From assembly GCA_019359435.1 (NCBI GenBank), contig JAHHHI010000097.1, positions 1-32,000 of the forward strand: a DNA stretch of 32,000 bases, in the 5' to 3' direction. Source of the DNA: Kaiparowitsia implicata GSE-PSE-MK54-09C (lineage in GTDB: Bacteria; Cyanobacteriota; Cyanobacteriia; Elainellales; Elainellaceae). Position 1 is the stretch's first letter, and the number at the start of each line of letters is the position of its first letter. This document shows, piece by piece, positions 364 to 23,182 of this stretch. The position numbers were made by a program, and so were the translations under genes. Below the pieces are notes generated by a model that worked only from the letters and a program-made list of their open reading frames with translations, searched no databases and was not told the origin of the DNA.

Positions 364-639
364 TTATTGATGTGCCTCCATATACGCTCGTAGCAATTGA
401 TTGATCTGTGTCTGATAGCCTCGCCCTTGAGACTTGAACCACTCCAATACATCGCTATCAATGCGGAGTGTAACTTGAGCCTTGGCTTTTGTGGTAGGTA
501 AACCTCGTCGCACTACTGCTTTAGCAAACATTTCTGGTGTAATCTCTGGACAGTCTGACAAATCAATATCCTCATCACTCATTGCGTCTAATCGTTGCCA
601 ATCAGTTTGAGAGTTGCTCGAAGTAGGTTCGTTGTTCAT
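364..639 (-). CDS. brnA: BrnA-family antitoxin (RHH/CopG-like)
   Basis: I place the start at the internal ATG at 639 (MNNEPTSSNSQTDWQRLDAMSDEDIDLSDCPEITPEMF...VTLRIDSDVLEWFKSQGRGYQTQINQLLRAYMEAHQ). The DWxRLDAMxDEDID motif and the C-terminal LRID..vLeWFK..G.GYQt.IN..LR motif are typical of BrnA. The gene lies directly downstream of brnT and overlaps it. Confidence 0.85.
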   Translation of the reverse strand: MNNEPTSSNSQTDWQRLDAMSDEDIDLSDCPEITPEMFAKAVVRRGLPTTKAKAQVTLRIDSDVLEWFKSQGRGYQTQINQLLRAYMEAHQ

Positions 640-877
640 ATTTCGTCGCTTTTCTTGCAGAAAGAATACGAGTGCAATCCTCACGTTCTGTATGGACAAC
701 GGCAATCACTCGCCCTTGCAACAAACCGAATGTGACAAAACGCTGCTCTCCATAACTGTAACGATTGTCCTCAACCGTTAAGATATCGCCGTCAAATACG
801 GCTAGAACATCAACAAAATCGATGCCGTGTTTACGAAGATTAGCAAGACGTTTTGCTTCATCCCATTCATATTCCAT
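602..877 (-). CDS. brnT: BrnT-family toxin (DUF497 ribonuclease)
   Basis: 91 aa: MEYEWDEAKRLANLRKHGIDFVDVLAVFDGD...EQRFVTFGLLQGRVIAVVHTEREDCTRILSARKATKYE. This is the canonical DUF497/BrnT pattern (F/YEWDxxKxxxNxxKHGIxF ... ISARKAT). ATG at 877. Confidence 0.9.
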   Translation of the reverse strand: MEYEWDEAKRLANLRKHGIDFVDVLAVFDGDILTVEDNRYSYGEQRFVTFGLLQGRVIAVVHTEREDCTRILSARKATKYEQRTYFEQLSN

Positions 878-1232: not shown

Positions 1233-1418
1233 ATGGCATCTACCCCTAAGCTTTTGGACCAAGTTCGCCAGGTGCTTCGGGTCAGGCATTACTCTTATGA
1301 AACCGAGAAAACTTATGTCAACTGGATCAAACGATTTATAGCGTTTCATCAGATGAGGCTACCCAGGGAAATGGGTGCGATCGCAATCGTGAAGACTAGG
1401 GCAAACAGTAACAGGTAG
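1233..1418 (+). pseudogene. Truncated tyrosine recombinase: integron-integrase-like N-terminal SAM-like domain only
   Basis: MASTPKLLDQVRQVLRVRHYSYETEKTYVNWIKRFIAFHQMRLPREMG closely parallels the IntI N-terminus as I recall it for IntI1 ([42 protein letters not shown]). After about residue 50 the similarity ends, and a stop follows at codon 62. No catalytic domain is present in any frame downstream. Confidence 0.65.
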
Positions 1419-4470: not shown

Positions 4471-4899
4471 ATTTCTACAGCAACTTGCCTACAGCAACCG
4501 CTCCACTAAAGATTGGCAGATCTGGAAGGTTGGGGATAATGAGGGCAATTCATATCTACATTCCGCAACGCCCCGTTGCTTAGCCGCGAGGAGCAATCAC
4601 CCAGTCGTTCTCGATTTCCGCTATTTGATAAATGCTGGCTCTGATCTGCAAATCTTTCTCTGCAAATCGTTTATCAGGCTAATCCTTGCCACCTCGATAA
4701 TCTAAAAAATATCGTCTGGTGTAGGGTGGTGGTCGACATGCTGAAACTCTGGCAGTTGCACGATGAAGTTGTAGGGCGGTAGATAATCTTGAACTCAACA
4801 CCAAGCTCGTTCGCACCGACGCATTGTTTGGCTGTTTGGCAATCACTTACTTTGCATCAGGAAGCGTTTGGGTTTGTCAGCGGACTAGATTTGTGGATT

Positions 4900-6675
4900 T
4901 TAAGTTGTCAAGCAAGAACCTTCAAATGTCTCAGTTGGAATCCCCTGAATAGCCCTCCAGCAGGACTCCTTCTTGCACCATTCTGTAACATTACGACCAT
5001 CAGGTGGATTTGTGATTACTTGGTGGACTTCTCTCGAAATCATTTGAATTGCTTGTTGAAGCGACGGTGTAAGGCTTTGCTGCTTCCAGATCTTATCTAG
5101 ATCTACGTCTTGCTGAGTTTTATAGCTCAAGTATGCCAAGGTATAGGTCACAATATTTGCACGATAACCGCCAAACTTCTCACTCTGGACAATCTTCTCT
5201 GCACTTTTGAACAAAATAGCTTTGGCGATGAGGCGAGTAAAGTAGGTTTCGTCTGGCTCAGGGCGGCTCTTCTCTGTCAAGCCAACTGTGAACTTGGCAA
5301 AGTTTTTTTGGGCACCTAAACTGACGATATGAGGAAGCTGATCCCAAGTGTGTTCAAATTTTGCAAGATCGGTTTTGGTAAATTTTTGAGCATTCGGATG
5401 GGTAAGCGTGAAAGCTTTTTGCTTAGCAGGGGTGGATTCACGATTCTTGGCATCAGCGTACTGTCCCCGTGCCCGTTCATAAAACCACCGAGTTTGACGC
5501 TGAGTGCCATCAACGGCAGGTGCCCAAATAGTACGCGAGAGTTCTTCAACGCGAATGTGAAATGGGTCGTTGGCGGAGAAATCAGCTTCATTGACCTTAT
5601 TTTGGTTGTTGGCGTAGCGGGAAATCAGGGGCACGATTTCATCCATACGATCGCGATCCACTACAGTCAACTTGGTTTGGACGTAAATCCCAGAAATATC
5701 TGCTTTGTCTTTGCGAACGGCTTGATAGAGAGAAGCTGTAGTCTGACCACCATTCACAATCTGGAAATCACGAATTTCGGCAATCCCTTGTCCACCGTTG
5801 GGTAAATCGACAAGTTTCACTGTCTCAGCAGTTGCAGAAATGCCATTGTTGTAGGCAAGGAAACGGTGGGGTTCTTTCAAAATCGTTTGACGAATGCCTT
5901 TATTGACATTGCCTTTTGCTTGTAGAAAGGAGCGGACGTTGCGTTCCAGTAGTCTTGAGCCATATTCAGCGTAGATTTTGCAGAGAATTTCACCGGGAAT
6001 GATGGCAACATAAGCACGGTAATCTGCTTGGGATTCTGGCATGGCAAGGCAGGGAATAACAGAATCGTACTGGGCTTGAAAATTAATTTCGATCGCCTCT
6101 CGTTTTTGTCCTGATGTGACACAGCGATAAGTTCGGCGAAGATCCCAGATGTTATAGGAATAGTTGACTCCGTTTACGTCTTGACTTTTCTTGGTTTGTA
6201 GTGTGGTTAGTCCGTCGGTGAAGAGGAATAGACGTACATGGCTAAATTGGCTGCGCTGGCTGTGAATTAACTGTGCCATATCAAAGGTCGGAGAGGCTTC
6301 TTCGATCGATTGGTGATAGCCTTTGTGGACTTTGCTCAGAAAATTAATCAGTTGCTTAAAAGCACTTTCAACCGCATCCTTACGAACAGTAGTAGGACTA
6401 AGATTCTGATTATAAATGGAGATGAATAAATCGAGCCGCCCCTCTTCTTCTTGGAGATTGTAGCCGTTGACTTTAATACCACGGGCACTGTGATAGCAAA
6501 CGTGTCCATCTTCAAGTTCACCTGCTTCGGTCAAATACTCGATCATGAGGTGGGTAAAAGCTTCCTCTCGAAAGGAACCGCCCTCTTCCTCAGTCTGATT
6601 ACCCTCCGCATCGAAGATGACTTCCTGATGAAGATTTTCGACAAATCGGCCGAGTTCCAGATCATCATTGCTCAT
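4900..6675 (-). CDS. AIPR-family protein (abortive-infection phage-resistance family)
   Basis: I take the start at ATG 6675 (MSNDDLELGRF...), which overlaps the upstream stop as ATGA. The recognised family motifs are RFLAYNNGISATAETV and DFQIVNGGQTTASL. It is the last gene of the operon. Confidence 0.85.
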   Translation of the reverse strand: MSNDDLELGRFVENLHQEVIFDAEGNQTEEEGGSFREEAFTHLMIEYLTEAGELEDGHVCYHSARGIKVNGYNLQEEEGRLDLFISIYNQNLSPTTVRKDAVESAFKQLINFLSKVHKGYHQSIEEASPTFDMAQLIHSQRSQFSHVRLFLFTDGLTTLQTKKSQDVNGVNYSYNIWDLRRTYRCVTSGQKREAIEINFQAQYDSVIPCLAMPESQADYRAYVAIIPGEILCKIYAEYGSRLLERNVRSFLQAKGNVNKGIRQTILKEPHRFLAYNNGISATAETVKLVDLPNGGQGIAEIRDFQIVNGGQTTASLYQAVRKDKADISGIYVQTKLTVVDRDRMDEIVPLISRYANNQNKVNEADFSANDPFHIRVEELSRTIWAPAVDGTQRQTRWFYERARGQYADAKNRESTPAKQKAFTLTHPNAQKFTKTDLAKFEHTWDQLPHIVSLGAQKNFAKFTVGLTEKSRPEPDETYFTRLIAKAILFKSAEKIVQSEKFGGYRANIVTYTLAYLSYKTQQDVDLDKIWKQQSLTPSLQQAIQMISREVHQVITNPPDGRNVTEWCKKESCWRAIQGIPTETFEGSCLTT

Positions 6676-7679
6676 GGCTGATCTCCTATCAGCGCAATAG
6701 CTTCTGATTCTGGAATAGAGAAGCGTTTGCACTCAGCAACGCTGATGGTATAACGCACATCTCCTACGCCGTTGCGGAGATCAGATTCAATAATTTTGGG
6801 GAAGTCTGCTCCAACTTTGAAATAGTTATGCTCTCGAATGGTGTGGCCGATATTTTCATAGCGAGTCGCATGAATATCTAGATACCCGACTTCAAATAAA
6901 AGATTTTCTAATTCGTCTCTAGCGATCGCGTTACCCGAAACAAGCGATCGCACACTCGCAACTATCTCCGGTAGAGTCTCACCTTGGACTTGTCGCACAT
7001 CTAGCGATATATGGAGCAGCACAATCACCCCTGCGCCAGTATCATCCAGTTGTCGTTCGCTGGCGATTGCTAATTTCTGATGTTGCTTTGCACTGGTCGT
7101 TTTGACCTCAACCGCACATCGAGAAAACTGAAAATCCTGCTGAGTTCCTTTTGGACCAGTCCAACATCGGAGTCCATTGAACAAACCCAGATGTGGCAAA
7201 ATCACCTGCCTCAAAAACCACAGTTCTCCGTAAAGTCCCTGTTGAGCAATCTCACTTAGCCCTTCTGGTTGATTTGCCTTCAGAAATGCTTGCCATCGCC
7301 GTAGGCGCACGACAAATTCTTCTAGTCCAGTTTCCTCGGTTGGTTTTTCAGCAACGCCTGTGATCACGTCATCAACTAGCGCAGTAAAAATGTCAGAGTA
7401 ACGGCTCTGAGTTAAAGCAAGTTGGAGGGTCACATAATCCTGGCCATCGTCCGACAATTGTACTAACTGTATTTGAAAACCTTCAGATTTCGGGTATTCC
7501 CGAATAAATTCGGTAACTGTACGTCTTACTCTCAGTAGCAATGCTCGCGTCCCTTGCGGTTCTATTACAGCAATACGCAAATCGCACAGGGAGTTTGGTC
7601 TAACTCTTCGAGTTACATAGCCAGATCTATTTTGTTGAATAGTACGCTCAAGCTCACTCCAAAGTTCAGAAATGTTCAT
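6672..7679 (-). CDS. PD-(D/E)xK-motif protein (putative nuclease)
   Basis: 335 aa. The candidate catalytic core is ...GTQQDFQFSRCAVEVKTTSAK (D...E-V-K). The gene is coupled on both sides by ATGA overlaps (7676-7679 and 6672-6675). The fold assignment rests on the motif only. Confidence 0.7.
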   Translation of the reverse strand: MNISELWSELERTIQQNRSGYVTRRVRPNSLCDLRIAVIEPQGTRALLLRVRRTVTEFIREYPKSEGFQIQLVQLSDDGQDYVTLQLALTQSRYSDIFTALVDDVITGVAEKPTEETGLEEFVVRLRRWQAFLKANQPEGLSEIAQQGLYGELWFLRQVILPHLGLFNGLRCWTGPKGTQQDFQFSRCAVEVKTTSAKQHQKLAIASERQLDDTGAGVIVLLHISLDVRQVQGETLPEIVASVRSLVSGNAIARDELENLLFEVGYLDIHATRYENIGHTIREHNYFKVGADFPKIIESDLRNGVGDVRYTISVAECKRFSIPESEAIALIGDQP

Positions 7680-10429
7680 TCTTCATCTTCATCCCCAAAT
7701 TCTTCTGAGTAGTAAACGTTATTTACCCGATACTCCACGCTGCTCGCATTTGTGCTGCTGGGAAAGCTAATTGCAAATCCTAAAATCGGTGGTTCCAGCG
7801 ACCATCCAGCATCTTCTGGATCAAGAGGATAAATGAGGAGAAGTCCTCTATCAGAAGATCGCTCTCGTCTAAAAGGATTACTTGGCTCACCATCTACAAC
7901 CTGATTTCGTGATGTACTGTCTTGTCTCGTTTCTTCTCGTATTCGCCGTCTGACCTCTTCTGGTAGATCAATACTTTCATCTGCTGGACTAACTAACCTT
8001 TTAATCGAATATCGGTCAGCACTGCTAGCTGTTGATTTAGTGCGCTTATATAAACCGACTCTACACCCATTAATATGTACATATTTTGGGGTTTCATCTG
8101 ACTTGAAGATTCTTTTAGACTTCAGTACAACTGTCCAACTTCTTAACTCACTTTTCGCAAGTTGAGCACTAATATATTCTGCCAAAAGTCTACTATTAGC
8201 TCTTAAAGAGTCGCGATGAGTTTCTATACTTCTTAAAAGTCTTACAATGTCGCTACCAGGTATATCTCTCCAGACATATGCATCCCCCGAAGTTACAGTC
8301 GGAGCAACAGCAGGTTCACCACATTCTGTGAAAAATTGTGCAAATTTTTCCAAATTTTTCTGGTTTCTTGTAGGGTCTTTATAAAAGGCAACAGTCTCAC
8401 TGATTGAGCCAGAATAGGATACTTGTAATGTTTTCCCATCTCTGATCTTGCCCACACTAGAAATAGCAAGTCCTGCAGGATGTGTCCTAACTTTCAATCC
8501 AAATTCAGCAGGAGTTTTATCCAACATTGCCATATAGTCAAATTCTTGTCGTAACTCCTCGCTGGCGATAGTAATATGCTCGTACCACTCCACCAATTCA
8601 CTTGTTGTGTACAATCGGCAAAGATCGAGGTACTTTGGTCGATATCCGAACCATCGTCCCATTTGCATCAGCGTGTCATACATCTTGGAAGCTCGAAGAT
8701 AATAGCTAACAGTCAAGCCGTTAAGAGTTAGTCCACGAGATAATTTGTTGCCACCAATTGCAATAACATTAAGACCATCAGGATTGTCTATATAATCTAA
8801 AAGTTCTTTAGCTTTACCATTGATAACTCTAACCTGAATTTTTTGAGCGGCTGCCTCTAAATAAGCTCTAATTTCCTGCCAATTAACTTTCGGAGTATCA
8901 GGGTCGTCAATAGCTTCAGAAGTTGGCACAAAATCATCATTCCAAAGCCTTTCAAATTCCGATAAAAGTTTATCAGAAGCTTCACCATCGCCATAGCGTA
9001 GCCGACGTTGTAAGTGCTGCACTTCGCGATTAATCTGCGTTTTAACTTTGTTCTGTACTTCCGTGAAGCGAGTAACATGAATCAACATTGAGTTATGTTC
9101 TCGCCCCTGTCCTCTCGCCATTCTTGTGGCACAGGAAATGATAAAAGAGTTAAGGGCTTTTTTTAGAGAAATTGGTAGTGATCCAGGCACGTAGTCCGTC
9201 TTATGTTTATCAGCTACCCAATCTTCATAATCTTCGATATAGCGGATTACAGGCAAACTGTCTTGCGCTTCCAGCCCAGCTTCAGGGTCAGCAGCCAGAC
9301 CAAAAAAGCGTACTGGACCAACATAGTTGTCTGGAGCAGGAAGATTTACAATGAAGTCCCGTGGAAAAAGCTCATCACCATGTTGATCTGTTCTGGTATT
9401 TAGATTGATAAAAATATTGGCAAAAGGTGTCGCTGTATAGCCAACGTAAGAACTTTGAGCAAAGCTGTGTAGTAGCTCTCGAATTCTTGCATTGATGGTC
9501 GTTGGGTTTGCATCTTCATCTCTTGTGTTGATGGAAGCGTTATCGCATTCATCATCAATTAATAACAAGGGAACATCGTGAATAATTATACGTCCATTTT
9601 GTGAATCTCTTTCTCCATATCTTCCAGTTAGCCAACGGTTAAGATTGCTGAGAATTGATCCGTTCTTCTTGACGACCAACAGTAATGGAACAGAACTCAA
9701 GTCAATACTAGAGTGTTTTGCGATCGTAAGCTTGAAATCCCCTTTCTCCTCACTATGGGTGAGTGACTGAACAGGATGCAGCTTTTCTCCTTTGAGAGCA
9801 CCTACTCCAACTCGAAGATTACTCTGATCAAATGTCATCCGATGCCGTGTATTGTAGCCAAGAAAACCTTCATCTAGCCGAATTTGGGTTTGGCTCCGCA
9901 AGTCATTGTGCATTCCTGCTAAAACAACGATTAACCGATAGCCTGCATCTGCTGCTTTGCAAATTAAACCAGTATAGTTTGCCGTTTTTCCTGACTGAAC
10001 TTGACCAGCTACCATACCACGCCGATCCCAACTGCCATTGCGAGTTGGGTTTTCAAGTCTCTCAAGAACTTTATCCGTGAGTTCGTCAACTCGCCGAATA
10101 ATCCGAGGTGACCAATTTTCTTCTTCAAGTAGATAGCGCTCATATCGTTTCCAGAAGCGCCACTCAATATTGTCACGGCGTTCCGGCAACCAATCTCTAC
10201 GATCCTTACTTTCCAGGATAGTACCTGTTCCAATCCTGACATTAAATCGGCTTTGGAGATCCCAGACAAGCCCTGCGACATCGATATTTTCAGGATCACC
10301 CTGAAGCGCCACCATCTTGATCGCAAGCTCAACTGTTGACCGAATCAGATCGTCGGTAACGTCATCATTGCGCTTCAGCATTGACAGCGCAAAATCAAGT
10401 GCCTGCTCGTATTCGTGCGAGTTGCTCAT
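7676..10429 (-). CDS. Z1-domain P-loop NTPase (helicase-like)
   Basis: I take the start at ATG 10429 (MSNSHEYEQALDF...), which overlaps the upstream stop as ATGA. Walker A is GQVQSGKTANYTG and Walker B is LLLIDDECDNAS. GYTATPFAN is present. The Z1 signatures are IAIGGNKLSRGLTLNGL and MQMGRWFGYRP. Confidence 0.85.
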   Translation of the reverse strand: MSNSHEYEQALDFALSMLKRNDDVTDDLIRSTVELAIKMVALQGDPENIDVAGLVWDLQSRFNVRIGTGTILESKDRRDWLPERRDNIEWRFWKRYERYLLEEENWSPRIIRRVDELTDKVLERLENPTRNGSWDRRGMVAGQVQSGKTANYTGLICKAADAGYRLIVVLAGMHNDLRSQTQIRLDEGFLGYNTRHRMTFDQSNLRVGVGALKGEKLHPVQSLTHSEEKGDFKLTIAKHSSIDLSSVPLLLVVKKNGSILSNLNRWLTGRYGERDSQNGRIIIHDVPLLLIDDECDNASINTRDEDANPTTINARIRELLHSFAQSSYVGYTATPFANIFINLNTRTDQHGDELFPRDFIVNLPAPDNYVGPVRFFGLAADPEAGLEAQDSLPVIRYIEDYEDWVADKHKTDYVPGSLPISLKKALNSFIISCATRMARGQGREHNSMLIHVTRFTEVQNKVKTQINREVQHLQRRLRYGDGEASDKLLSEFERLWNDDFVPTSEAIDDPDTPKVNWQEIRAYLEAAAQKIQVRVINGKAKELLDYIDNPDGLNVIAIGGNKLSRGLTLNGLTVSYYLRASKMYDTLMQMGRWFGYRPKYLDLCRLYTTSELVEWYEHITIASEELRQEFDYMAMLDKTPAEFGLKVRTHPAGLAISSVGKIRDGKTLQVSYSGSISETVAFYKDPTRNQKNLEKFAQFFTECGEPAVAPTVTSGDAYVWRDIPGSDIVRLLRSIETHRDSLRANSRLLAEYISAQLAKSELRSWTVVLKSKRIFKSDETPKYVHINGCRVGLYKRTKSTASSADRYSIKRLVSPADESIDLPEEVRRRIREETRQDSTSRNQVVDGEPSNPFRRERSSDRGLLLIYPLDPEDAGWSLEPPILGFAISFPSSTNASSVEYRVNNVYYSEEFGDEDEE

Positions 10430-12012
10430 CTGTCCTCCTGCTTTTGGTATTGCTCCAGTACAACAGCAATCAAATCTTGATGATTTTGGAAGGGTTCCAT
10501 GCTTGACAGACGACTCCTTGCATCTTTGAAGTCCCACCCATTCTTGAGTAAAGTGTCAAGAACCTGAGTAATAACTTTTAATAACTCTTCAGTATTGACT
10601 CCTTCAAACGGTTGAGCTTGGGCATAAGGGTGCTCTGAGTTATCCACTATGATTAGCGGCACTGGAACCGTTTCTTCAATTATGCTTAAGAGAGCCTTAA
10701 GTGTTGGAGCGAGATCTGCTGATTGACTCAAAACAGCCTCTAACATTGGATGTTTTTGATTAAGACTGTAGAAGGTTTTTCCGTGCTTTACCTTCTGCTC
10801 CCAAAGATATGAGTAGTTGGTAGGGGTTTGCCTTGCAACCACCTTTCCTCGGTGTCTATATATTTCTGTAGCTCTCTTACGAGTCAAACCTGCTATGCGT
10901 TTCAGATCAGCCTTTAACAATGCGGGTGGACGCGCCCTTGACTTTTTGATATCGATATTCCAATCACTATCCATTGAATTCGGCAGATCTACTTGAATTC
11001 GTGCCAGTTTACAGTGTTCATCCTTGCGATATCCCCCCAAGCCCAACCAATCACCAGCAACCAGCAGGCGTTCATTGCGATACACATAAAAACCCTGTTG
11101 AGCATTCCAACCATTTAATCCTGCTGCTTTGTTGTAGGTGTCAGGGTCAATTTTGGAATGGTGCGGTAAGACATAAGGCTGAACCCGAACCGTTTCACCC
11201 TTAAAAGTAAGGGGTTCCAGAGGCAAAATCTGAGTCGCTTGAGCATCAAGTAGAAATGGATTCCAGGGTTCAATACGGTGATGATTGATCCAGAGTTTGA
11301 GGCGATCGCGCTTTTCTAAAAAACGATGAAATACCATTGCCAGGTGGTTTTCTACAACTTCAACCGTTTCAAGAAAATCATCTTGAGCTTTCTGGTCGTC
11401 TGTTTTTGCTGTACCTACAATCCGATCCAAGCATTCCCACAGTACAATCGTGCCATAAGGCATAATTTCCAAGTCATTCAATTTCTGGGCTGAACCTTCC
11501 GCAGGAGTATGAAGCAGCCTCCACTCGTCAACCTGGTTGACGTAATCTAGATCCCATCGCCTGATAGCAACCGCATGATCTTTTGAGCGCGAGGCGACTG
11601 TCAACCGTCGACATTGAGAGAAAGAGGCTGTCTTCAGTCCCAAGCCGAATCGCCCCAAGTCGTCTGGGTCTCTTTCCTCCAAAGGATGCTGGCTACCTGG
11701 ACGCATTGCACTGATCAGTTGCGCTTCCGTCATGCCATGTCCATCATCCCGAATAGAAATATAGGAGTTAGCACCATCCCAACAAAAGCTCAGCCAGATA
11801 TTGCGTGCTTTAGCCGTAATACTGTTATCTATAAGATCTGCGATAGCAGTCTGAACATTGTAGCCAAAAGCACGTAGAGACTCTATCATCGCCGAAGCAC
11901 GAGGTTCAGCAATGTCGTACATAGATTTAGGTATATCGTTGGTGTTTAGACCCATGATTGAAGGCTGGGCTGGCGTTGACCAAATTGTAACTTCACTCTC
12001 TACAGAGAGCAT
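10426..12012 (-). CDS. GHKL/Bergerat-fold ATPase (HATPase_c_3, MutL/MORC-like)
   Basis: The N-box is ADLIDNSITA, the G1 box is IRDDGHGMT and the G2 box is GRFGLGLKTAS. The start is uncertain. The track start at 12036 is a TTG. I chose ATG 12012 (MLSVESEV...), which is preceded by AAGAG. The ATG giving MGLNTND... is also possible. Confidence 0.85.
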   Translation of the reverse strand: MLSVESEVTIWSTPAQPSIMGLNTNDIPKSMYDIAEPRASAMIESLRAFGYNVQTAIADLIDNSITAKARNIWLSFCWDGANSYISIRDDGHGMTEAQLISAMRPGSQHPLEERDPDDLGRFGLGLKTASFSQCRRLTVASRSKDHAVAIRRWDLDYVNQVDEWRLLHTPAEGSAQKLNDLEIMPYGTIVLWECLDRIVGTAKTDDQKAQDDFLETVEVVENHLAMVFHRFLEKRDRLKLWINHHRIEPWNPFLLDAQATQILPLEPLTFKGETVRVQPYVLPHHSKIDPDTYNKAAGLNGWNAQQGFYVYRNERLLVAGDWLGLGGYRKDEHCKLARIQVDLPNSMDSDWNIDIKKSRARPPALLKADLKRIAGLTRKRATEIYRHRGKVVARQTPTNYSYLWEQKVKHGKTFYSLNQKHPMLEAVLSQSADLAPTLKALLSIIEETVPVPLIIVDNSEHPYAQAQPFEGVNTEELLKVITQVLDTLLKNGWDFKDARSRLSSMEPFQNHQDLIAVVLEQYQKQEDR

Positions 12013-12047
12013 AGCTCTTAATTTAGGTTGCCCCAAAACGAGTGAAA

Positions 12048-13259
12048 TCAGCAGATTTTCTGCTCCTTTCGGTAGGATTGGATCAACTGGACTAGAGGCT
12101 TAGCAACTGCCTCTGCAAGAAGAGGTGGTACAGAGTTGCCCACCAATTCAAACATCCGGGTCATCGGAGCATAAAAAACAAAATCGTCAGGAAAGCTTTG
12201 AAGCCTAGCAGCTTCACGAACAGAGATACTGCGATTTTGTAGAGGATGAATGTATGCCAGACCGTCTTTTCTCATGTGAGCAGTCAAAGTCCAAGCTGGC
12301 TCATTCCAAATTAAACGCTTATATTTGTCATCAAAAATATCAACTCGATACCGCATCATCTCTTTAGGTATGTCCCTATATTTTCCACCTTGATCTAACA
12401 TTTCAAAAATCATAATGTCCTTGTCATTATGAGAACGGCAAAGATGATTCCATACCCCTTCACCTTCCTTCTTACGCTTCCTCATTTTTTTTTGATAAGG
12501 CGACTGAGGTGGACATTTGTAAGGGCACTCCGCATCTTTCTGTTTTGGCCCAGAAGATTTGGTCTTGAGGGGCATAACGAAAGGCTGTAGATCAGGAAGA
12601 TCACAGATCGCCTCACCAACTGATATGGGACTTTGTACTCGCTGGCTAGGAAAAGGCGGATCAATTTCCAGATCAGAACGAATCCCCACTATAAAAAGCC
12701 TCATTCTTTTTTGAGGCACACCAAACTTGGAAGAATCTAATACTCGATAATCAACTTTATATCCAGGATAATTCTCTTGCTTGTTACGGCTGAAATCTTG
12801 GCAAATTCTCAACAGCTTTTTTTGTCTGTTGGCCAAAAAATCAACATTTTCCATTACAAAGCACAGAGGCTGATAATGAGAAACAAATCTTACAAACTGC
12901 TCATACAAAAAATTTCTATGGTCGGATTCTATATCTCTACCAAGCTTTCGCATTTTGCCAATGCCAACCCGTGAGAAAACTTGACAGGGTGGTCCACCCA
13001 CTAAAATATCTACTTCGCCAGGATTCAATCCCAGCTGATCAAGATTACAAAGACTACAGATATCTTGAGAGGGTAGCTTCAGCTTGGCAGTGGGAAAATT
13101 TTGATGATGAGTAGCGATTGCATAATGATTTTGATCAATTCCACCTAATATCTGACACCCAGCATTCTCGAATCCTAAGCTCATCCCCCCTGCCCCGCAA
13201 AAAATATCGAGTACAGTAGGTTTAATTTTTCGGCTGGCTCTTTCCTCGGTCGTCTGCAT
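12048..13259 (-). CDS. DNA (cytosine-5)-methyltransferase
   Basis: All diagnostic C5-MTase motifs are present. Motif I is DIFCGAGGMSLGF, IV is GGPPCQVFS, VI is FVMENV, VIII is QKRMRLFIVG, IX is SVREAARLQSFPDDF and X is GNSVPP. A long lysine-rich variable region lies between VIII and IX. It is the first gene of the operon. Confidence 0.95.
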   Translation of the reverse strand: MQTTEERASRKIKPTVLDIFCGAGGMSLGFENAGCQILGGIDQNHYAIATHHQNFPTAKLKLPSQDICSLCNLDQLGLNPGEVDILVGGPPCQVFSRVGIGKMRKLGRDIESDHRNFLYEQFVRFVSHYQPLCFVMENVDFLANRQKKLLRICQDFSRNKQENYPGYKVDYRVLDSSKFGVPQKRMRLFIVGIRSDLEIDPPFPSQRVQSPISVGEAICDLPDLQPFVMPLKTKSSGPKQKDAECPYKCPPQSPYQKKMRKRKKEGEGVWNHLCRSHNDKDIMIFEMLDQGGKYRDIPKEMMRYRVDIFDDKYKRLIWNEPAWTLTAHMRKDGLAYIHPLQNRSISVREAARLQSFPDDFVFYAPMTRMFELVGNSVPPLLAEAVAKPLVQLIQSYRKEQKIC

Positions 13260-13781
13260 TCGTTTAATTCACCTTGCGGTTTCTTTTGAATGATACACGA
13301 GAACTCCCAGGCTTCAGCCTCTGTAGTGGCTTTGCCGAGCAAGGCAGCATACTTGCTACACTAGCCAGATTCCCGGAATGGTATCTAAATTACGACTGTG
13401 AAAGAGATAAGTGTTGCCTTAGTTCATTAGTCTTAAAACTACTTTCCTAACAGATAACCCATAGAAGCCTAACAATGGCCATATCCGGTTCTGAATCTGC
13501 CAGCGTGATAGGGCTGTTGAAACGCACATCTGCGTTCCCTACCAGCATCGCTTCAAGATACTTTGTGCCGCGTTTTGCCGTGGGTTAGTGAGTCGGGGCT
13601 TCTGGAATTAGGTTTGACAATGCAGCCCGCTAGCGATTTCACCGAGCGATTTCATCGAGCGATCGCCCAACACATCGGCTTCTCCCATTCGGTGATAGTC
13701 TTCAACAGACCCTGTCGTCACTGTTTTCCTGGCCGCATTGCTTCGTTCTCAAGAGTATTCTCAAGAATCTGACTGAATTCT

Positions 13782-18890: not shown

Positions 18891-20609
18891 ATGGTCGTAG
18901 CAGCAGAACGTAAACAAGCTCGACTCACGTTACAAACGTTAGAGGTTGCAGCAGAGACCACCGCCATCCGATCGCTCGATTGGGATCGGGATCGCTTTGA
19001 CATTGAGTTTCCGCTCGAAAACGGGACGACCTACAACTCATTTTTGATTCGCGGCGAGAAGGTAGCGCTGGTTGATACCGCTCACGAAAAGTTTCGCCAC
19101 CTCTATCTGGATTGCCTGACTGGGTTGATTGATCCCCAGTCGATCGATTATTTAGTAATCAGCCATACTGAGCCTGACCACAGCGGTTTAGTTAAGGATG
19201 TGCTGGAGCTAAATCCTGATATCACGGTTGTGGGCGCAAAGATTGCGCTGCAATTCTTAGACGAATTAGTGCATCGCCCTTATTCGCGCCGGGTGGTGAA
19301 GCAGGGCGATCGCCTCGACTTGGGCAAGGGGCACGAGTTAGAGTTTATCTCTGCGCCCAACCTGCACTGGCCCGACACCATCTTTACCTACGACCACGGC
19401 ACTCAGGTGCTCTACACCTGCGATGCCTTTGGGATGCACTTTTGCGACAACCACAGCTACGACCTGGATCTGCCCGTCATTGAAGCAGACTATCGGATCT
19501 ACTACGACTGCCTGATGGGGCCTAACGCCCGCTCGGTGCTATCAGCGCTGAAGCGACTGTCGAACCTGCCGCAGATTGATCTAGTTGCCACGGGCCATGG
19601 GCCGCTGCTGCGCCACAATATCGAGGAGTTGATGGGGCGCTACCGCGATTGGAGCACCGCCAAGGCCAAAGCAGAAACCCTAGTAGCGCTGTTTTATGCG
19701 GCTGACTATGGCAACAGCACGGCGCTGGCGGAGGCGATCGCCCGAGGCATTGCCAAAACCGGAGTGGCGGTGGAAATGGTTGACCTGCTCATTGCCGATC
19801 CCCAAGAGGTTCGGGTGCTCGTGGATATTGCAGCGGGCTTGGTCATTGGGATGCCGCCGCAATTCTCTAAAGAAATTCAGGCATTGCTCAGCACCATTCT
19901 GGCAACCAGCCATGCCAAGCAGGCGGTGGGCCTGTTCGAGAGCGGAGGTGAGGATGACGAATCGGTCTATCCCCTGCGCAACAAGTTTCAAGAAATCGGT
20001 GCGACGGAATCGTTTGCTCCCATTTTGCTGAAGGAAGCGCCCACGGATGCGCTGTACCAACTGTGTGAAGAAGCGGGTACTGACTTGGGCCAATGGCTGA
20101 CGCGCGATCGCACCGTCAAGCACATGAAGTCCCTGAATACGGATTTGGACAAAGCGCTGGGGCGGCTGAGCGGTGGGCTTTACATTATCACAGCGAAAAA
20201 AGGCGATGTGGCTAGCGCCATGTTGGCCTCTTGGGTGTCGCAGGCCAGCATGGAGCCCTTGGGCATTAGCATTGCCGTCGCCAAGGACCGCGCCATTGAG
20301 TCGCTGATGCATGTGGGCGATCGCTTCGTTCTCAATGTGTTGGAGGAAGGCAACTATCAAAGCCTGATGCGGCACTTCCTCAAGCGCTTTCCTCCTGGGG
20401 CAGACCGCTTTGCGGGCATCAAAACCTACCCCGCCACCCACGGGTCGCCGATTCTGGCCGATGCCCTCGCATATTTGGAATGTGAAGTGGTGAGCCGCAT
20501 GGAGTGCTCGGATCACTATGTGGTCTATAGCACGGTGGATACGGGGCGCGTCTCTAAGCCCGACTCGCTCACGGCTGTTCACCATCGCAAAGTGGGGAAC
20601 CATTACTAA
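18891..20609 (+). CDS. Class-C flavodiiron protein with canonical di-iron ligands (Flv3/Flv4 type)
   Basis: 572 aa. The metallo-beta-lactamase-like domain has ISHTEPDHSG (H-x-E-x-D-H), NLHWPD, CDAFG and TGHGP. A flavodoxin-like domain and a C-terminal flavin-reductase domain (LSGGLYIITAKKGD...) follow. GGAGGTG lies upstream of the ATG. Confidence 0.92.
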   Translation: MVVAAERKQARLTLQTLEVAAETTAIRSLDWDRDRFDIEFPLENGTTYNSFLIRGEKVALVDTAHEKFRHLYLDCLTGLIDPQSIDYLVISHTEPDHSGLVKDVLELNPDITVVGAKIALQFLDELVHRPYSRRVVKQGDRLDLGKGHELEFISAPNLHWPDTIFTYDHGTQVLYTCDAFGMHFCDNHSYDLDLPVIEADYRIYYDCLMGPNARSVLSALKRLSNLPQIDLVATGHGPLLRHNIEELMGRYRDWSTAKAKAETLVALFYAADYGNSTALAEAIARGIAKTGVAVEMVDLLIADPQEVRVLVDIAAGLVIGMPPQFSKEIQALLSTILATSHAKQAVGLFESGGEDDESVYPLRNKFQEIGATESFAPILLKEAPTDALYQLCEEAGTDLGQWLTRDRTVKHMKSLNTDLDKALGRLSGGLYIITAKKGDVASAMLASWVSQASMEPLGISIAVAKDRAIESLMHVGDRFVLNVLEEGNYQSLMRHFLKRFPPGADRFAGIKTYPATHGSPILADALAYLECEVVSRMECSDHYVVYSTVDTGRVSKPDSLTAVHHRKVGNHY

Positions 20610-20813
20610 CCCTTACTGATCGGTGGGGCGATCGCCCCGCTCGACCCGAACTCCGATACACTCCGATCAGAGATAGCGGAGATTCCTCAATACTTGGATC
20701 ATCAGCATAGCGGGATTATGGATAGAGTTGATGGTGGGCTGTGGCTAGGGCCTGGTTCCGGGGTCGGCTACAGTCTTGCTTAGGGGTTGGCGCATGTTCT
20801 AGAGGTTTTCCTG

Positions 20814-21398
20814 ATGACGGTTCTCACCCTCAATCTTGGCAAAGCGCTGAACCTGACCGACGAGCAGTTTGCTCAGTTGGCCGCTGCCAACCCAGAAGTG
20901 CGACTAGAACGCGCTGCAAATGGAGCACTCGTATTCATGCCCCCGACCGGTGGCACCAGCGGTCAACGCAATTTAGACCTAGAAGGCCAAATCTGGAGCT
21001 GGAACCGCACAGTCCAGCTGGGTGTAGCCTTTGATTCGTCTACCGGATTCAAACTGCCCAACGGCGCAACCCGCTCGCCCGATGTGGCGTGGGTGCGTCT
21101 CGATCGGTGGGAGTCGCTCACCCGCGACCAGCGGCGGCGGTTTCCGCCCCTTTGCCCCGACTTTGTGGTAGAACTATGCTCTGAAACGGATGATCTAGAC
21201 GACCTGCGCCTTAAGATGCAGGAATATGTCGCCAATGGCGTGCAATTAGGTTGGTTGATCGAGCCCAAAACCCAGCTAATTGAGGTTTACTGGGCAAACG
21301 GAACTGTAGACGCGGTGCGATCGCCCACCCAGCTTTCGGCTGACCCAGTGCTGCCCGGCTTCGAGCTAGACTTGCAGGTGATTTTTGCGCCCGACTAA
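20814..21398 (+). CDS. Uma2-family (DUF820) endonuclease
   Basis: I chose the start at ATG 20814 (MTVLTLNLGKALNLTDEQFAQLAAANPEVRLERAANGALVFMPPTG...). RSPDVAWV and PDFVVELCSETD form a PD-(D/E)xK-like core, and the protein ends ...LPGFELDLQVIF. This is typical of the cyanobacterial Uma2 family. Confidence 0.85.
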   Translation: MTVLTLNLGKALNLTDEQFAQLAAANPEVRLERAANGALVFMPPTGGTSGQRNLDLEGQIWSWNRTVQLGVAFDSSTGFKLPNGATRSPDVAWVRLDRWESLTRDQRRRFPPLCPDFVVELCSETDDLDDLRLKMQEYVANGVQLGWLIEPKTQLIEVYWANGTVDAVRSPTQLSADPVLPGFELDLQVIFAPD

Positions 21399-21448
21399 AT
21401 GACGCCGCTGTCGCGCCGTTGCCTTCTGCCCTTCATAGGTGTTTGGTT

Positions 21449-23182
21449 ATGACTCAGACTCACGCTCGCGATGTTCAGGTCGCTGAGATTGGCCCCGATT
21501 CTCTGGTGCTGCGATCGCGCACGTTTGATCGGCTCAAGTTTGAGGTAGAGTATGGCAAGCAAAAGGGCACCACGGCCAACGCTTACCTGATTCAGGCAGA
21601 CGACACGGCGCTGATCGATCCGCCGGGTGAGTCGTTTACCGAATTTTTTATTGAAGAATTGGCCACTCACGTCTATCTGCAAACGATTGACTACGTGATT
21701 TTGGGGCATATCAACCCCAATCGCTGCGCCACCCTCAAAGCGCTGCTGAATCCTGAAATCGCCTCACAAATTACCTTTGTCTGCACCCGCGCTGCCGAAG
21801 TGGTGCTCACCACGGCCTTTCCCAACTACCCCCTGCGCATTTTGGTGGTGAATGCAGAGGACACGCTGGCTCTGGGGCAGGGCCACACCCTGCAATTTGT
21901 GCCCACCCCCACTCCGCGCCACCCCGACGCGCTGTGCACCTATGACCCAGCTAGCCAGATCCTTTACACCGATAAGCTGTTTGGGGCACATATTTGCGAC
22001 GCGCCAGTGTTTGACGAGCAGTGGCGCGACTTGCAGGGCGATCGCCGCTATTATTTTGATTGCCTGCACGCCGCCCAGGCCAAACAGGTTGAGGCTGCCC
22101 TTGATCGCCTCCAGCCGGTGGCCGAGCAGATGCGGATTTTAGCGCCCACCCACGGCCCGCTGGCTCGCTACAGCGCGAGTCGTCTGATGTTTGACTATCG
22201 CTGCTGGTGTGAAGAGCAACGCTCCCAAAGCTTTAGCACGACGCTGCTGTTTGCCTCGGCCTATGGCAACACCGCCGCGATGGCAGGGGCGATCGCCCGA
22301 GGGCTAACCCAAGCCGGGGTTTCAGTCGCCTCGATCAACTGCGAGTTCACCGACCCCGCAGATATCACCGCTGCCGTGGAAAAGAGTGACGGATTTATCA
22401 TCGGCTCTCCGACGCTGGCGGGTCATGCGCCCACGCAAATTCAGACGGCGCTGGGGCTGGTGCTCTCTACCGCGCCCAAAACTCAGCTGGCGGGGGTGTT
22501 TGGCTCCTACGGCTGGAGTGGCGAAGCGGTGGATATGCTGGAGCGCAAGCTGCAAGACGCAGGCTATACCTTTGGCTTTGACCCGCTGCGGGTGAAGTTT
22601 AAGCCCACGGACGAGGTGCTGCATGAGTGCGAGGCAGCCGGAGCCAGCTTTGCCCAAGCGCTCAAAAAAGTCAGCAAAACTCGCACCGCTCGGCAACCTG
22701 TGCTCAGTGCCCAAACCGACCGCACTGAGCAGGCCGTCGCGCGCATCTCAGGCTCGCTCTGCATCCTCACCGCCAAAATCGACGGAATGGATATTGGCAT
22801 CCTCACCTCTTGGGTATCGCAGGCTACCTTCAATCCCCCTGGTCTAACCCTTGCCTTAGCGGCCGACCAAGCCGAGTCGCTCTTGCCGCAAAACGGCGAT
22901 CGCTTCGTCCTGAATGTGCTCAAAGAAGGGCAAGGTCTGCGCCGCCACTTTCTTAAGCCCATGCAGCCGGGAGAGGATCGCTTTGTGGGCTTGGCGACTC
23001 ATCCTGCCTCCAACGGGTGCGCTGTGTTGGATGAGGCGCTAGCCGCGTTGGAGTGTCGCATTGAGAACCGCATGAAATGCCACGATCACTGGCTGATCTA
23101 TGCCACCGTCGATACCGGCAAAGTGTTGCAATCGGTCGGGGTGACTGCGGTGCAACATCGCAAATCCAGCAGCTACTTCTAG
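21449..23182 (+). CDS. Class-C flavodiiron protein with substituted di-iron ligands (Flv1/Flv2 type)
   Basis: I chose the start at ATG 21449 (MTQTHARDVQV...). It has the same three-domain layout as the upstream flv gene. The H-x-E-x-D-H motif is replaced by LGHINPNRCA, and CDAFG is replaced by TDKLFG. The PRHPD and THGP histidines are retained. Confidence 0.9.
   Translation: MTQTHARDVQVAEIGPDSLVLRSRTFDRLKFEVEYGKQKGTTANAYLIQADDTALIDPPGESFTEFFIEELATHVYLQTIDYVILGHINPNRCATLKALLNPEIASQITFVCTRAAEVVLTTAFPNYPLRILVVNAEDTLALGQGHTLQFVPTPTPRHPDALCTYDPASQILYTDKLFGAHICDAPVFDEQWRDLQGDRRYYFDCLHAAQAKQVEAALDRLQPVAEQMRILAPTHGPLARYSASRLMFDYRCWCEEQRSQSFSTTLLFASAYGNTAAMAGAIARGLTQAGVSVASINCEFTDPADITAAVEKSDGFIIGSPTLAGHAPTQIQTALGLVLSTAPKTQLAGVFGSYGWSGEAVDMLERKLQDAGYTFGFDPLRVKFKPTDEVLHECEAAGASFAQALKKVSKTRTARQPVLSAQTDRTEQAVARISGSLCILTAKIDGMDIGILTSWVSQATFNPPGLTLALAADQAESLLPQNGDRFVLNVLKEGQGLRRHFLKPMQPGEDRFVGLATHPASNGCAVLDEALAALECRIENRMKCHDHWLIYATVDTGKVLQSVGVTAVQHRKSSSYF

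What the first reader, a model, noticed from the sequence alone, without database searches (positions are those of the whole stretch)
4900..13259. Five-gene operon: C5-methyltransferase, GHKL ATPase, Z1 NTPase, PD-(D/E)xK and AIPR, a multi-enzyme defence module with no known mechanism
Seen: five co-directional minus-strand genes with no gap large enough for an internal promoter. The first has every C5-MTase motif. The second has the Bergerat ATPase boxes (DLIDNSITA, DDGHGM, GRFGLGLKT). The third has Walker A/B motifs plus the Z1 signatures (LSRGLTLNGL, MGRWFGYR). The fourth has a D...EVK nuclease-like core. The fifth has the AIPR motifs (NNGISATA, VNGGQTT). There is no classical single-polypeptide restriction enzyme, Vsr, specificity subunit or other helicase. 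Established: Z1 and AIPR were originally defined as families that neighbour C5-methylases and restriction-modification operons. As far as I recall, a MutL-like/Z1/AIPR gene set was named Mza in a 2020 systematic defence screen and protected E. coli from phage. So this architecture is probably not unseen. To my knowledge the enzymology, DNA target, self/non-self rule and the role of each of the four non-methylase proteins are all undescribed, and it has not been studied in a cyanobacterium. Inference: the methylase marks self DNA. The GHKL ATPase and Z1 NTPase form an ATP-driven sensor or translocase for unmodified DNA. PD-(D/E)xK cleaves. AIPR acts as an abortive or backup effector.
Basis: partly seen in the sequence, partly recalled or inferred. 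Interest (0 to 1): 0.8.

Follow-up and report, generated by a model that had tools for sequence, protein, structure and literature searches.

The report
Methylase-linked Mza-type phage defence operon

Summary

The operon is a foreign island in a cyanobacterial chromosome, with low GC and few HIP1 sites. It also moves as a bare five-gene unit.

My survey adds three points:
- 52 of 53 complete related loci carry a C5-methylase, usually adjacent, including those with MzaA.
- Near-identical B-E cores pair with unrelated methylases.
- A discrete "motor cassette" (MzaB C-terminus + MzaC + MzaD N-terminus) is exchanged between lineages.

Best reading: an ATP-dependent, R-M-like restriction complex with 5mC as the self mark. 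An abortive-infection role for AIPR is unsupported.

The parts
12048..13259 (-). C5-cytosine DNA methyltransferase (Dcm), 403 aa, first gene of the operon. It occupies the position that MzaA holds in canonical Mza.
   Evidence: Pfam DNA_methylase 9.4e-60, full length. TIGR00675 dcm 193.7 bits against a cut-off of 100.65. PADLOC MTase_II 3e-95. Motifs I (FCGAGG), IV (PPCQ), VI (ENV), VIII (QKRMR), IX and X (GNSVPP) are visible in the translation.
10426..12012 (-). MzaB-like prokaryotic MORC ATPase (GHKL + S5), 528 aa. The C-terminal ~130 aa belong to the exchangeable motor cassette.
   Evidence: HATPase_c_3 2e-31. PADLOC MzaB 3.9e-133. NCBIfam MzaB 510 bits, below the 850 cut-off. The MORC-specific S5 motif GhXhhpXXRhl is present as GFYVYRNERLL and is conserved in 85/85 relatives.
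7676..10429 (-). [not shown]
6672..7679 (-). MzaD-like PD-(D/E)xK nuclease (DUF4420), 335 aa. The N-terminal ~125 aa belong to the motor cassette, and the nuclease core is aa ~126-335.
   Evidence: DUF4420 2e-87. PADLOC MzaD 2e-27. E152, D182, E191-V-K193 and P294 are invariant in 40 homologues. E. coli MzaD has nuclease activity that is weakened by D187A and P297A.
4900..6675 (-). MzaE-like AIPR protein, 591 aa (AIPR_N + AIPR core). It is the most conserved component.
   Evidence: AIPR 2e-111 and AIPR_N 2e-46. PADLOC MzaE 1.9e-108. It is 94% identical to the Chloroploca and Phormidesmis proteins. The AF2 model has pLDDT 82 and pTM 0.70 and no significant PDB match.
7299..10840 (.). Exchanged 'motor cassette': MzaD N-terminus + all of MzaC + MzaB C-terminus.
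   Evidence: Against Chloroploca L006 and Phormidesmis L005, DNA homology of 84-89% covers 4898-7298 and 10841-13371, but the middle is replaced. By protein region, B_C is 37-40%, C 52-53% and D_N 35-40% identical. The backbone is far closer: B_N 89-92%, D_C 85-86%, E 94%, Dcm 83%. MzaD N-termini among metagenome homologues fall into two discrete classes.
4824..13371 (.). Horizontally acquired island (outer limits of homology to relatives). It carries only the five genes and lies between host recQ and a pentapeptide-repeat gene.
   Evidence: GC is 0.39-0.47 inside against 0.55-0.60 outside. Only 3 of 60 HIP1 sites fall inside. There is a collinear 85.6% DNA match over 4929-13297 to an Aphanocapsa MAG with different flanking genes. 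There are no flanking repeats and no tRNA.

Best explanation

Proposed steps, marked as shown or inferred:
1. Dcm methylates host cytosines. An intact enzyme is shown; its activity and target motif are inferred.
2. MzaB, MzaC and MzaD, and probably MzaE, form one complex. This is inferred from translational coupling, the invariant gene order, and the co-exchange of MzaB's C-terminus and MzaD's N-terminus together with MzaC.
4. The MORC ATPase MzaB acts like MutL, as an ATP-driven clamp or switch that couples the motor to the nuclease. This is an analogy first proposed by Iyer et al. 2008.
5. MzaD cuts DNA that lacks the 5mC mark. Nuclease activity is shown for the E. coli homologue; methyl-sensitivity is inferred.
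6. AIPR is a conserved DNA- or modification-sensing subunit rather than a suicide effector. This is the weakest step. The only evidence is a set of sub-threshold ParB/DndB/DUF262-like structural hints.
For: Family assignments are strong.

Order and coupling:
- B-C-D-E occur in this order in 75 of 83 related loci.
- The window has 4-nt overlaps at three junctions.

Methylase linkage:
- 52 of 53 complete loci with flanks have a C5-MTase, at a median distance of 426 bp.
- 38 of the 53 also have Vsr, whose known role is repair of 5mC deamination.
- The same holds in 30 IMG/VR loci.
- The same pipeline found no Dcm in about 446 kb of control loci.

Mobility: the five genes, including Dcm, move as one unit. 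The match to Aphanocapsa is 85.6% collinear and ends 38 bp upstream of the Dcm start codon.

Published work:
- E. coli Mza restricts T4(C) and T4(hmC) 10^3-10^4-fold without growth arrest, and MzaD cuts DNA.
Against: - No experiment exists on this subtype, and the methylase motif is unknown.
- E. coli canonical Mza works and is tolerated without any linked methylase.
- Near-identical B-E cores are paired with unrelated methylases. L031 and L032 share 92-95% identical cores but Dcm is only 50% identical, with TRD blocks at 26-42%. L061 and L073 have Dcm at 34%. A classical sequence-matched enzyme/methylase pair is therefore unlikely.
- No subunit with a recognisable sequence-specific or 5mC-binding domain was found.
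- Purified E. coli MzaD cut modified and unmodified T4 DNA alike.
- No promoter or terminator signal rose above background.
- No Vsr lies in the window.
Confidence: 0.55

Rival explanations
1. The B-E genes form a methylation-independent, Mza-type defence that senses infection by some other cue. The adjacent Dcm (with or without Vsr) is a co-travelling or regulatory module, not the self mark.
For: The E. coli and Enterobacter Mza loci have no linked Dcm yet protect. Dcm is freely exchanged, changes side and changes orientation relative to conserved cores. Defence genes generally cluster together.
Against: Adjacency in 52 of 53 loci, at a median of 426 bp and across many phyla and layouts, is far tighter than island co-occurrence. 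In the window Dcm is inside the operon and inside the transferred unit. Enterobacteria have a chromosomal Dcm that could substitute; this last point is from my own knowledge and was not tested.
Confidence: 0.25
2. The locus is an abortive-infection system. AIPR is a toxic effector that kills or arrests the infected cell once the ATPases sense phage.
For: The AIPR family name supports this. There is also a PADLOC AbiU hit at 4e-23.
Against: E. coli Mza showed no growth arrest at MOI 0.05-5. AIPR has no recognisable toxin or nuclease fold. It always travels with a nuclease, a motor and a methylase.
Confidence: 0.07
3. The locus is a selfish addiction or DNA-repair module. In this reading it is a MutL/MutH/UvrD-like, Vsr-linked system acting on 5mC-derived mismatches, with no real anti-phage role.
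For: The parts parallel mismatch repair: GHKL to MutL, the RE-fold protein to MutH, and the helicase to UvrD. Vsr is frequent in related loci. Iyer et al. noted possible recruitment of such systems to repair.
Against: The locus is mobile, patchily distributed and foreign in composition. Relatives occur on prophage-like contigs and plasmids. Homologous Mza and the Serratia SDIC2 system protect by 1000-fold or more.
Confidence: 0.08
4. The locus is a Type IV-like, modification-dependent restriction system that attacks foreign modified DNA. The Dcm would serve an unrelated function.
For: AIPR gives weak structural hints to the DUF262/GmrSD/DndB-like ParB superfamily.
Against: E. coli Mza restricts unmodified T4(C) best and glucosyl-hmC T4 worst. 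A 5mC-dependent nuclease next to an active Dcm would be suicidal.
Confidence: 0.05

Closest known systems
[not shown]
   Same: It has the same five protein families. The MORC S5 motif, the helicase motif DThhQXuRhFG, the E-D-ExK nuclease residues, the cytosine methylase and AIPR are all present, and it was predicted to be an R-M/defence system.
   Different: The window has no Vsr and no regulator gene. It is a cyanobacterial instance on a bare five-gene mobile unit. Neither paper gives experiments.
mzaABCDE (Gao_Mza; Gao et al. 2020; E. coli/Salmonella)
   Same: MzaB, C, D and E are full-length homologues in the same order (PADLOC E-values 1e-27 to 1e-214). The anti-phage function of the enterobacterial system has been validated.
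   Different: MzaA (sigma-70-like) is absent and a Dcm takes its place. Identity is 25-46%. All four proteins score below the NCBIfam equivalog cut-offs. E. coli loci lack an adjacent methylase.
CglI / NgoAVII ATP-dependent Type II restriction enzymes (R2H2)
   Same: [quoted passage not shown] They are also linked to a C5-methylase.
   Different: The window has no PLD-B3 R-subunit. Its nuclease is a PD-(D/E)xK protein, and there are additional MORC ATPase and AIPR subunits. MzaC has extra terminal domains.
MutL-MutH-UvrD methyl-directed mismatch repair
   Same: A GHKL+S5 ATPase, an RE-fold nuclease and a helicase act with a DNA methylation mark. This is a mechanistic analogy.
   Different: No MutS-like sensor is present. 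The mark is 5mC rather than Dam 6mA. The locus is mobile and lies in a defence context. The analogy has not been tested.

Membership tests
Mza (mzaABCDE, Gao 2020 / PADLOC / NCBIfam) | MzaA, a ~680-aa sigma-70-like protein, encoded upstream of mzaB | tested here: not met
   The first gene is a C5-MTase. A phmmer search with a verified MzaA (PADLOC 1e-72) finds nothing in the window.
Mza (mzaABCDE, Gao 2020 / PADLOC / NCBIfam) | MzaB, MzaC, MzaD and MzaE homologues in that order | tested here: met
   PADLOC E-values are 3.9e-133, 6.5e-214, 2.1e-27 and 1.9e-108, all near full length. The order is confirmed.
Mza (mzaABCDE, Gao 2020 / PADLOC / NCBIfam) | Scores reach the NCBIfam equivalog cut-offs | tested here: not met
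   Scores against cut-offs are 510/850, 807/1500, 164/420 and 465/1050 bits.
Mza (mzaABCDE, Gao 2020 / PADLOC / NCBIfam) | Protects against phage | not testable with these tools
   Only literature on E. coli/Salmonella Mza and Serratia SDIC2 is available.
[not shown]
   GFYVYRNERLL is present in the window protein. The motif occurs in 85/85 relatives.
[not shown]
   [not shown]
[not shown]
   E152, D182 and E191-x-K193 are invariant. DUF4420 scores 2e-87.
[not shown]
   Dcm and AIPR are in the operon. Vsr is absent from the window but present in 38 of 53 relatives, so it is optional.
[not shown]
   PADLOC Helicase_II scores 8.5e-40 over aa 282-663. The motor motifs are intact.
CglI/NgoAVII-type ATP-dependent Type II restriction enzyme | R-subunit with a PLD nuclease and a B3-like DNA-binding domain | tested here: not met
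   No such gene exists in the operon. The nuclease is a PD-(D/E)xK DUF4420 protein.
Classical Type II R-M | Methylase plus a cognate single-polypeptide restriction endonuclease of matching specificity | tested here: not met
   No such ORF exists. Related cores pair with unrelated methylases.
Abortive infection (AIPR/AbiU) | Infection-triggered cell death or growth arrest | not testable with these tools
   The AIPR domain is present. The only data, from E. coli Mza, show no arrest.

The most novel reading that the evidence does not exclude

Several observations would then fit together:
- B-E cores swap methylases freely.
- Enterobacterial Mza needs no linked methylase, because it could use the host's orphan Dcm.
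- The motor, together with its docking domains on MzaB and MzaD, is exchanged as a cassette independently of the methylase.

AIPR, with its ParB/DndB/DUF262-like hints, would be the modification sensor.
Probability: 0.25. Interest if true: 0.65.

Novelty: new member of a known kind. Interest (0 to 1): 0.35.

Why it matters
As filed, the finding adds a cyanobacterial member to an operon type already predicted in 2008 and 2022 and related to a validated defence system. That is useful for annotation but not surprising.

Value could come from the comparative results. The near-universal Dcm linkage, the interchangeability of the methylase, and the discrete motor cassette give concrete, cheap experiments on how this widespread family tells self from non-self. 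The family is large: at least 570 species-level genomes carry a relative, and the nuclease alone has about 5,660 clusters at 50% identity.

These results also bear on two wider questions. One is whether enterobacterial Mza exploits the long-enigmatic orphan Dcm. The other is what prokaryotic MORC ATPases, the ancestors of eukaryotic MORCs linked to DNA methylation, actually do.

Tried and rejected
- PDB sequence searches (single-sequence and profile) for MzaB, C, D and E found nothing.
- The AIPR AF2 model is good (pLDDT 82), but Foldseek against the PDB gave no significant hit. The best was a pNOB8 ParB-N domain at probability 0.41.
- BFVD gave a phage AIPR at 3e-9 and only sub-threshold DndB, DdrB-ParB and GmrSD hits. 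I treat the ParB-like idea as a lead, not a result.
- The MzaD AF2 model has low confidence in the catalytic loops, and its Foldseek hits (kinase N-lobes) are noise.
- Pfam at E<=10 gave no extra domains.
- Promoter and terminator scans were at background level.
- No terminal repeats, tRNA or Rfam hits mark the island ends.
- The empty-site test failed. The nearest relatives of the flanking pentapeptide gene are at most 61% identical, and none has recQ nearby.
- The Gao 2020 paper itself is not held, so what it reports is taken second-hand.
- The methylase target motif could not be inferred. PDB matches cover only the catalytic core.
- I considered a classical Type II pair, a CglI-type enzyme and canonical Mza membership. 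I rejected each because a defining part is missing.
Full report

Yes. Five long minus-strand ORFs fill 4900-13259. An identical public contig (Logan SRR13242888) carries these gene calls:
- Dcm, 403 aa, 12048-13259.
- GHKL ATPase, 528 aa, 10426-12012.
- DUF4420 protein, 335 aa, 6672-7679.
- AIPR protein, 591 aa, 4900-6675.

There is a 35-nt gap after the methylase, followed by three 4-nt start/stop overlaps.

**2. Context**

The host is a cyanobacterium. The HIP1 octamer GCGATCGC occurs 60 times against 0.9 expected. Two class-C flavodiiron genes lie nearby.

The operon is a foreign island:
- GC is 0.39-0.47 inside and 0.55-0.60 outside.
- Only 3 of the 60 HIP1 sites fall inside it.
- It sits between a bona fide recQ and a pentapeptide-repeat gene.
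- An Aphanocapsa MAG has the same five genes at 85.6% DNA identity, collinear over window 4929-13297, but between different neighbours.

The five genes, methylase included, therefore move as a bare unit. No integrase, repeats or tRNA mark the ends.

**3. What family is it?**

PADLOC recognises genes 2-5 as MzaB (4e-133), MzaC (6.5e-214), MzaD (2e-27) and MzaE (2e-108). NCBIfam matches the same four at full length, but all fall below the equivalog cut-offs.

MzaA is a sigma-70-like protein, not a methylase. I verified this on a Thalassospira plasmid (PADLOC MzaA 1e-72) and in E. coli, where PGAP names all five genes. The window lacks MzaA.

The literature shows the architecture is not new:
- Iyer, Abhiman & Aravind 2008 described a 'third type' of MORC operon and predicted it to be an R-M system. 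It has an SFII helicase carrying a C-terminal domain with the motif DThhQXuRhFG (window: DTLMQMGRWFG). It also has an RE-fold protein with E-D-ExK, together with DCM, VSR and AIPR.
- The window's ATPase carries their MORC-specific S5 motif (GFYVYRNERLL), which is present in 85/85 relatives.
- Puigbo et al. 2017 noted a similar island in C. diphtheriae.
- Mza comes from Gao et al. 2020. That paper is not held.

**4. Comparative survey**

- B-C-D-E occur in that order in 75 of 83 loci.
- Of 53 loci with a complete operon and adequate flanks, 52 have a C5-methylase gene. The median gap is 426 bp, and 39 lie within 1 kb.
- 38 of the 53 have Vsr.
- 22 of the 53 have MzaA, and 21 of those also have a Dcm.
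- Layouts vary: Dcm upstream and co-directional as in the window, divergent, downstream, or convergent with Vsr.
- Thirty IMG/VR contigs repeat the pattern.
- About 446 kb of unrelated control loci run through the same pipeline contained no Dcm.

The one exception is an Enterobacter locus. E. coli mzaABCDE, found in 55 of 5,426 complete genomes, likewise has no adjacent methylase.

The DUF4420 family is large. It has 5,660 clusters at 50% identity with E<=1e-3 among 1.84 billion representatives.

**5. Two observations not seen in the papers read here**

(a) Motor cassette. I compared the window with Chloroploca (L006) and Phormidesmis (L005).

| Region | Identity to window |
|---|---|
| Dcm | 83% (TRD 88%) |
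| MzaB aa 40-395 | 89-92% |
| MzaD aa 126-335 | 85-86% |
| MzaE | 94% |
| MzaB aa 400-528 | 37-40% |
| MzaC | 52-53% |
| MzaD aa 1-125 | 35-40% |

The last three regions are as distant as homologues from other phyla. The replaced DNA is contiguous, at window 7299-10840.

Among MzaD homologues whose nuclease core is 80-89% identical to the window's, the N-terminus is either 84-91% or 34-42% identical. Nothing falls between. The same kind of swap recurs in proteobacterial MzaA-type loci, for example L023 and L078.

I infer that MzaC is the hub of the complex, and that MzaB's C-terminal domain and MzaD's N-terminal domain dock on it. The cassette also varies independently of the methylase.

(b) Interchangeable methylase. 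Cores that are nearly identical carry unrelated methylases:
- L031 and L032 have B 92, C 95, D 93 and E 93% identity, but Dcm is 50% identical (TRD blocks 26-42%) and lies on the opposite side.
- L064 and L073 have Dcm at 46%.
- L061 and L073 share the same layout, but Dcm is 34% identical.

The B-E core therefore does not look matched to one methylation sequence.

**6. Mechanism**

Shown directly or by close homology:
- The window has an intact C5-methylase.
- It has a MORC-type GHKL+S5 ATPase.
- It has a PD-(D/E)xK protein. Its E. coli homologue cuts DNA in vitro and is weakened by D187A and P297A, which correspond to the invariant D182 and P294 here.

In vivo, E. coli Mza has a narrow spectrum on 111 phages. 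It restricts T4(C) and T4(hmC) 10^3-10^4-fold and glucosylated T4 about 10-fold. It causes no growth arrest.

Inferred: Dcm-made 5mC marks self. The B-C-D(-E) complex loads on DNA, translocates, and cuts DNA that lacks the mark. MzaB plays a MutL-like coupling role. I give this 0.55.

The main rival (0.25) is a methylation-independent Mza mechanism with Dcm/Vsr as a passenger. Abortive infection via AIPR, a repair or addiction role, and Type IV-like restriction are each unlikely, for the reasons given under the rivals.

**7. AIPR**

AIPR is the best-conserved subunit, and it has no solved relative by sequence or profile. The AF2 model is confident (pLDDT 82, pTM 0.70).

Foldseek finds nothing significant in the PDB. 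The sub-threshold hits repeatedly belong to the ParB superfamily: pNOB8 ParB-N, DndB-like, DdrB-like ParB and GmrSD. The invariant strand-to-helix motif IVNGGQTT also resembles the DGQHR/DGQQR motif of DUF262 and DndB; that comparison rests on my own knowledge. This is a lead only.

**8. Novelty and score**

The finding is a new, cyanobacterial member of a known and already predicted operon type. It is related to a validated system but is not a member of it. Its claim that the mechanism is unknown is partly right. Its AIPR role is unsupported, and its interest score is too high.

I score interest at 0.35. The score is raised slightly by the motor cassette and the methylase-agnostic pattern, which make the self/non-self question directly testable.

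Noticed in passing
window 7299-10840; L005, L006, L085; also L023/L078: A discrete, recurrent recombination cassette (MzaB C-terminus + MzaC + MzaD N-terminus) is exchanged on an otherwise 83-94% identical backbone. MzaD N-termini fall into two classes (84-91% or 34-42% identical to the window) with no intermediates.
   Followed up: yes
L031/L032, L061/L073, L064/L073: B-E cores that are 76-95% identical are paired with C5-methylases only 34-50% identical. The methylases are sometimes on opposite sides of the operon, so the methylase looks interchangeable.
   Followed up: partly
L087 (E. coli DX6), L072 (Enterobacter): Canonical enterobacterial mzaABCDE has no adjacent methylase, unlike 21 of 22 MzaA-type loci elsewhere. 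It occurs in 55 of 5,426 complete E. coli genomes. In strain DX6 it lies next to IS elements, a truncated restriction gene and a DUF2787 (pipolin-type) gene.
   Followed up: partly
window 4900-6675 versus L006: The AIPR protein is 94% identical between this cyanobacterium and a Chloroflexota genome (Ca. Chloroploca). This indicates recent inter-phylum transfer.
   Followed up: partly
window 364-877 (-): A BrnT/BrnA type II toxin-antitoxin pair is present (Pfam 6.6e-27 and 8.4e-20), in a lower-GC stretch at the window start.
   Followed up: partly
window 1233-1418 (+): A 61-aa fragment matches only the N-terminal SAM-like domain of a phage/integron-type integrase (Phage_int_SAM_4, 1.2e-13). It is probably a truncated integrase remnant, about 3.5 kb from the island on the far side of recQ.
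   Followed up: no
window 20787-21398 (+): A Uma2-family putative restriction endonuclease gene (9e-44) is inserted between two tandem flavodiiron protein genes (18891-20609 and 21419-23182).
   Followed up: no
window 24033-26054 (-): A 673-aa Ser/Thr protein kinase has partial similarity to the defence-associated kinases MAD6 and PglW. It scores below their cut-offs and is probably an ordinary cyanobacterial kinase.
   Followed up: no
L085 12813-13067, L086 8739-8993: The Aphanocapsa copy of the cassette has an extra 84-aa ORF just after the AIPR gene. The window has no counterpart, because homology ends about 27 nt before the AIPR stop codon.
   Followed up: no
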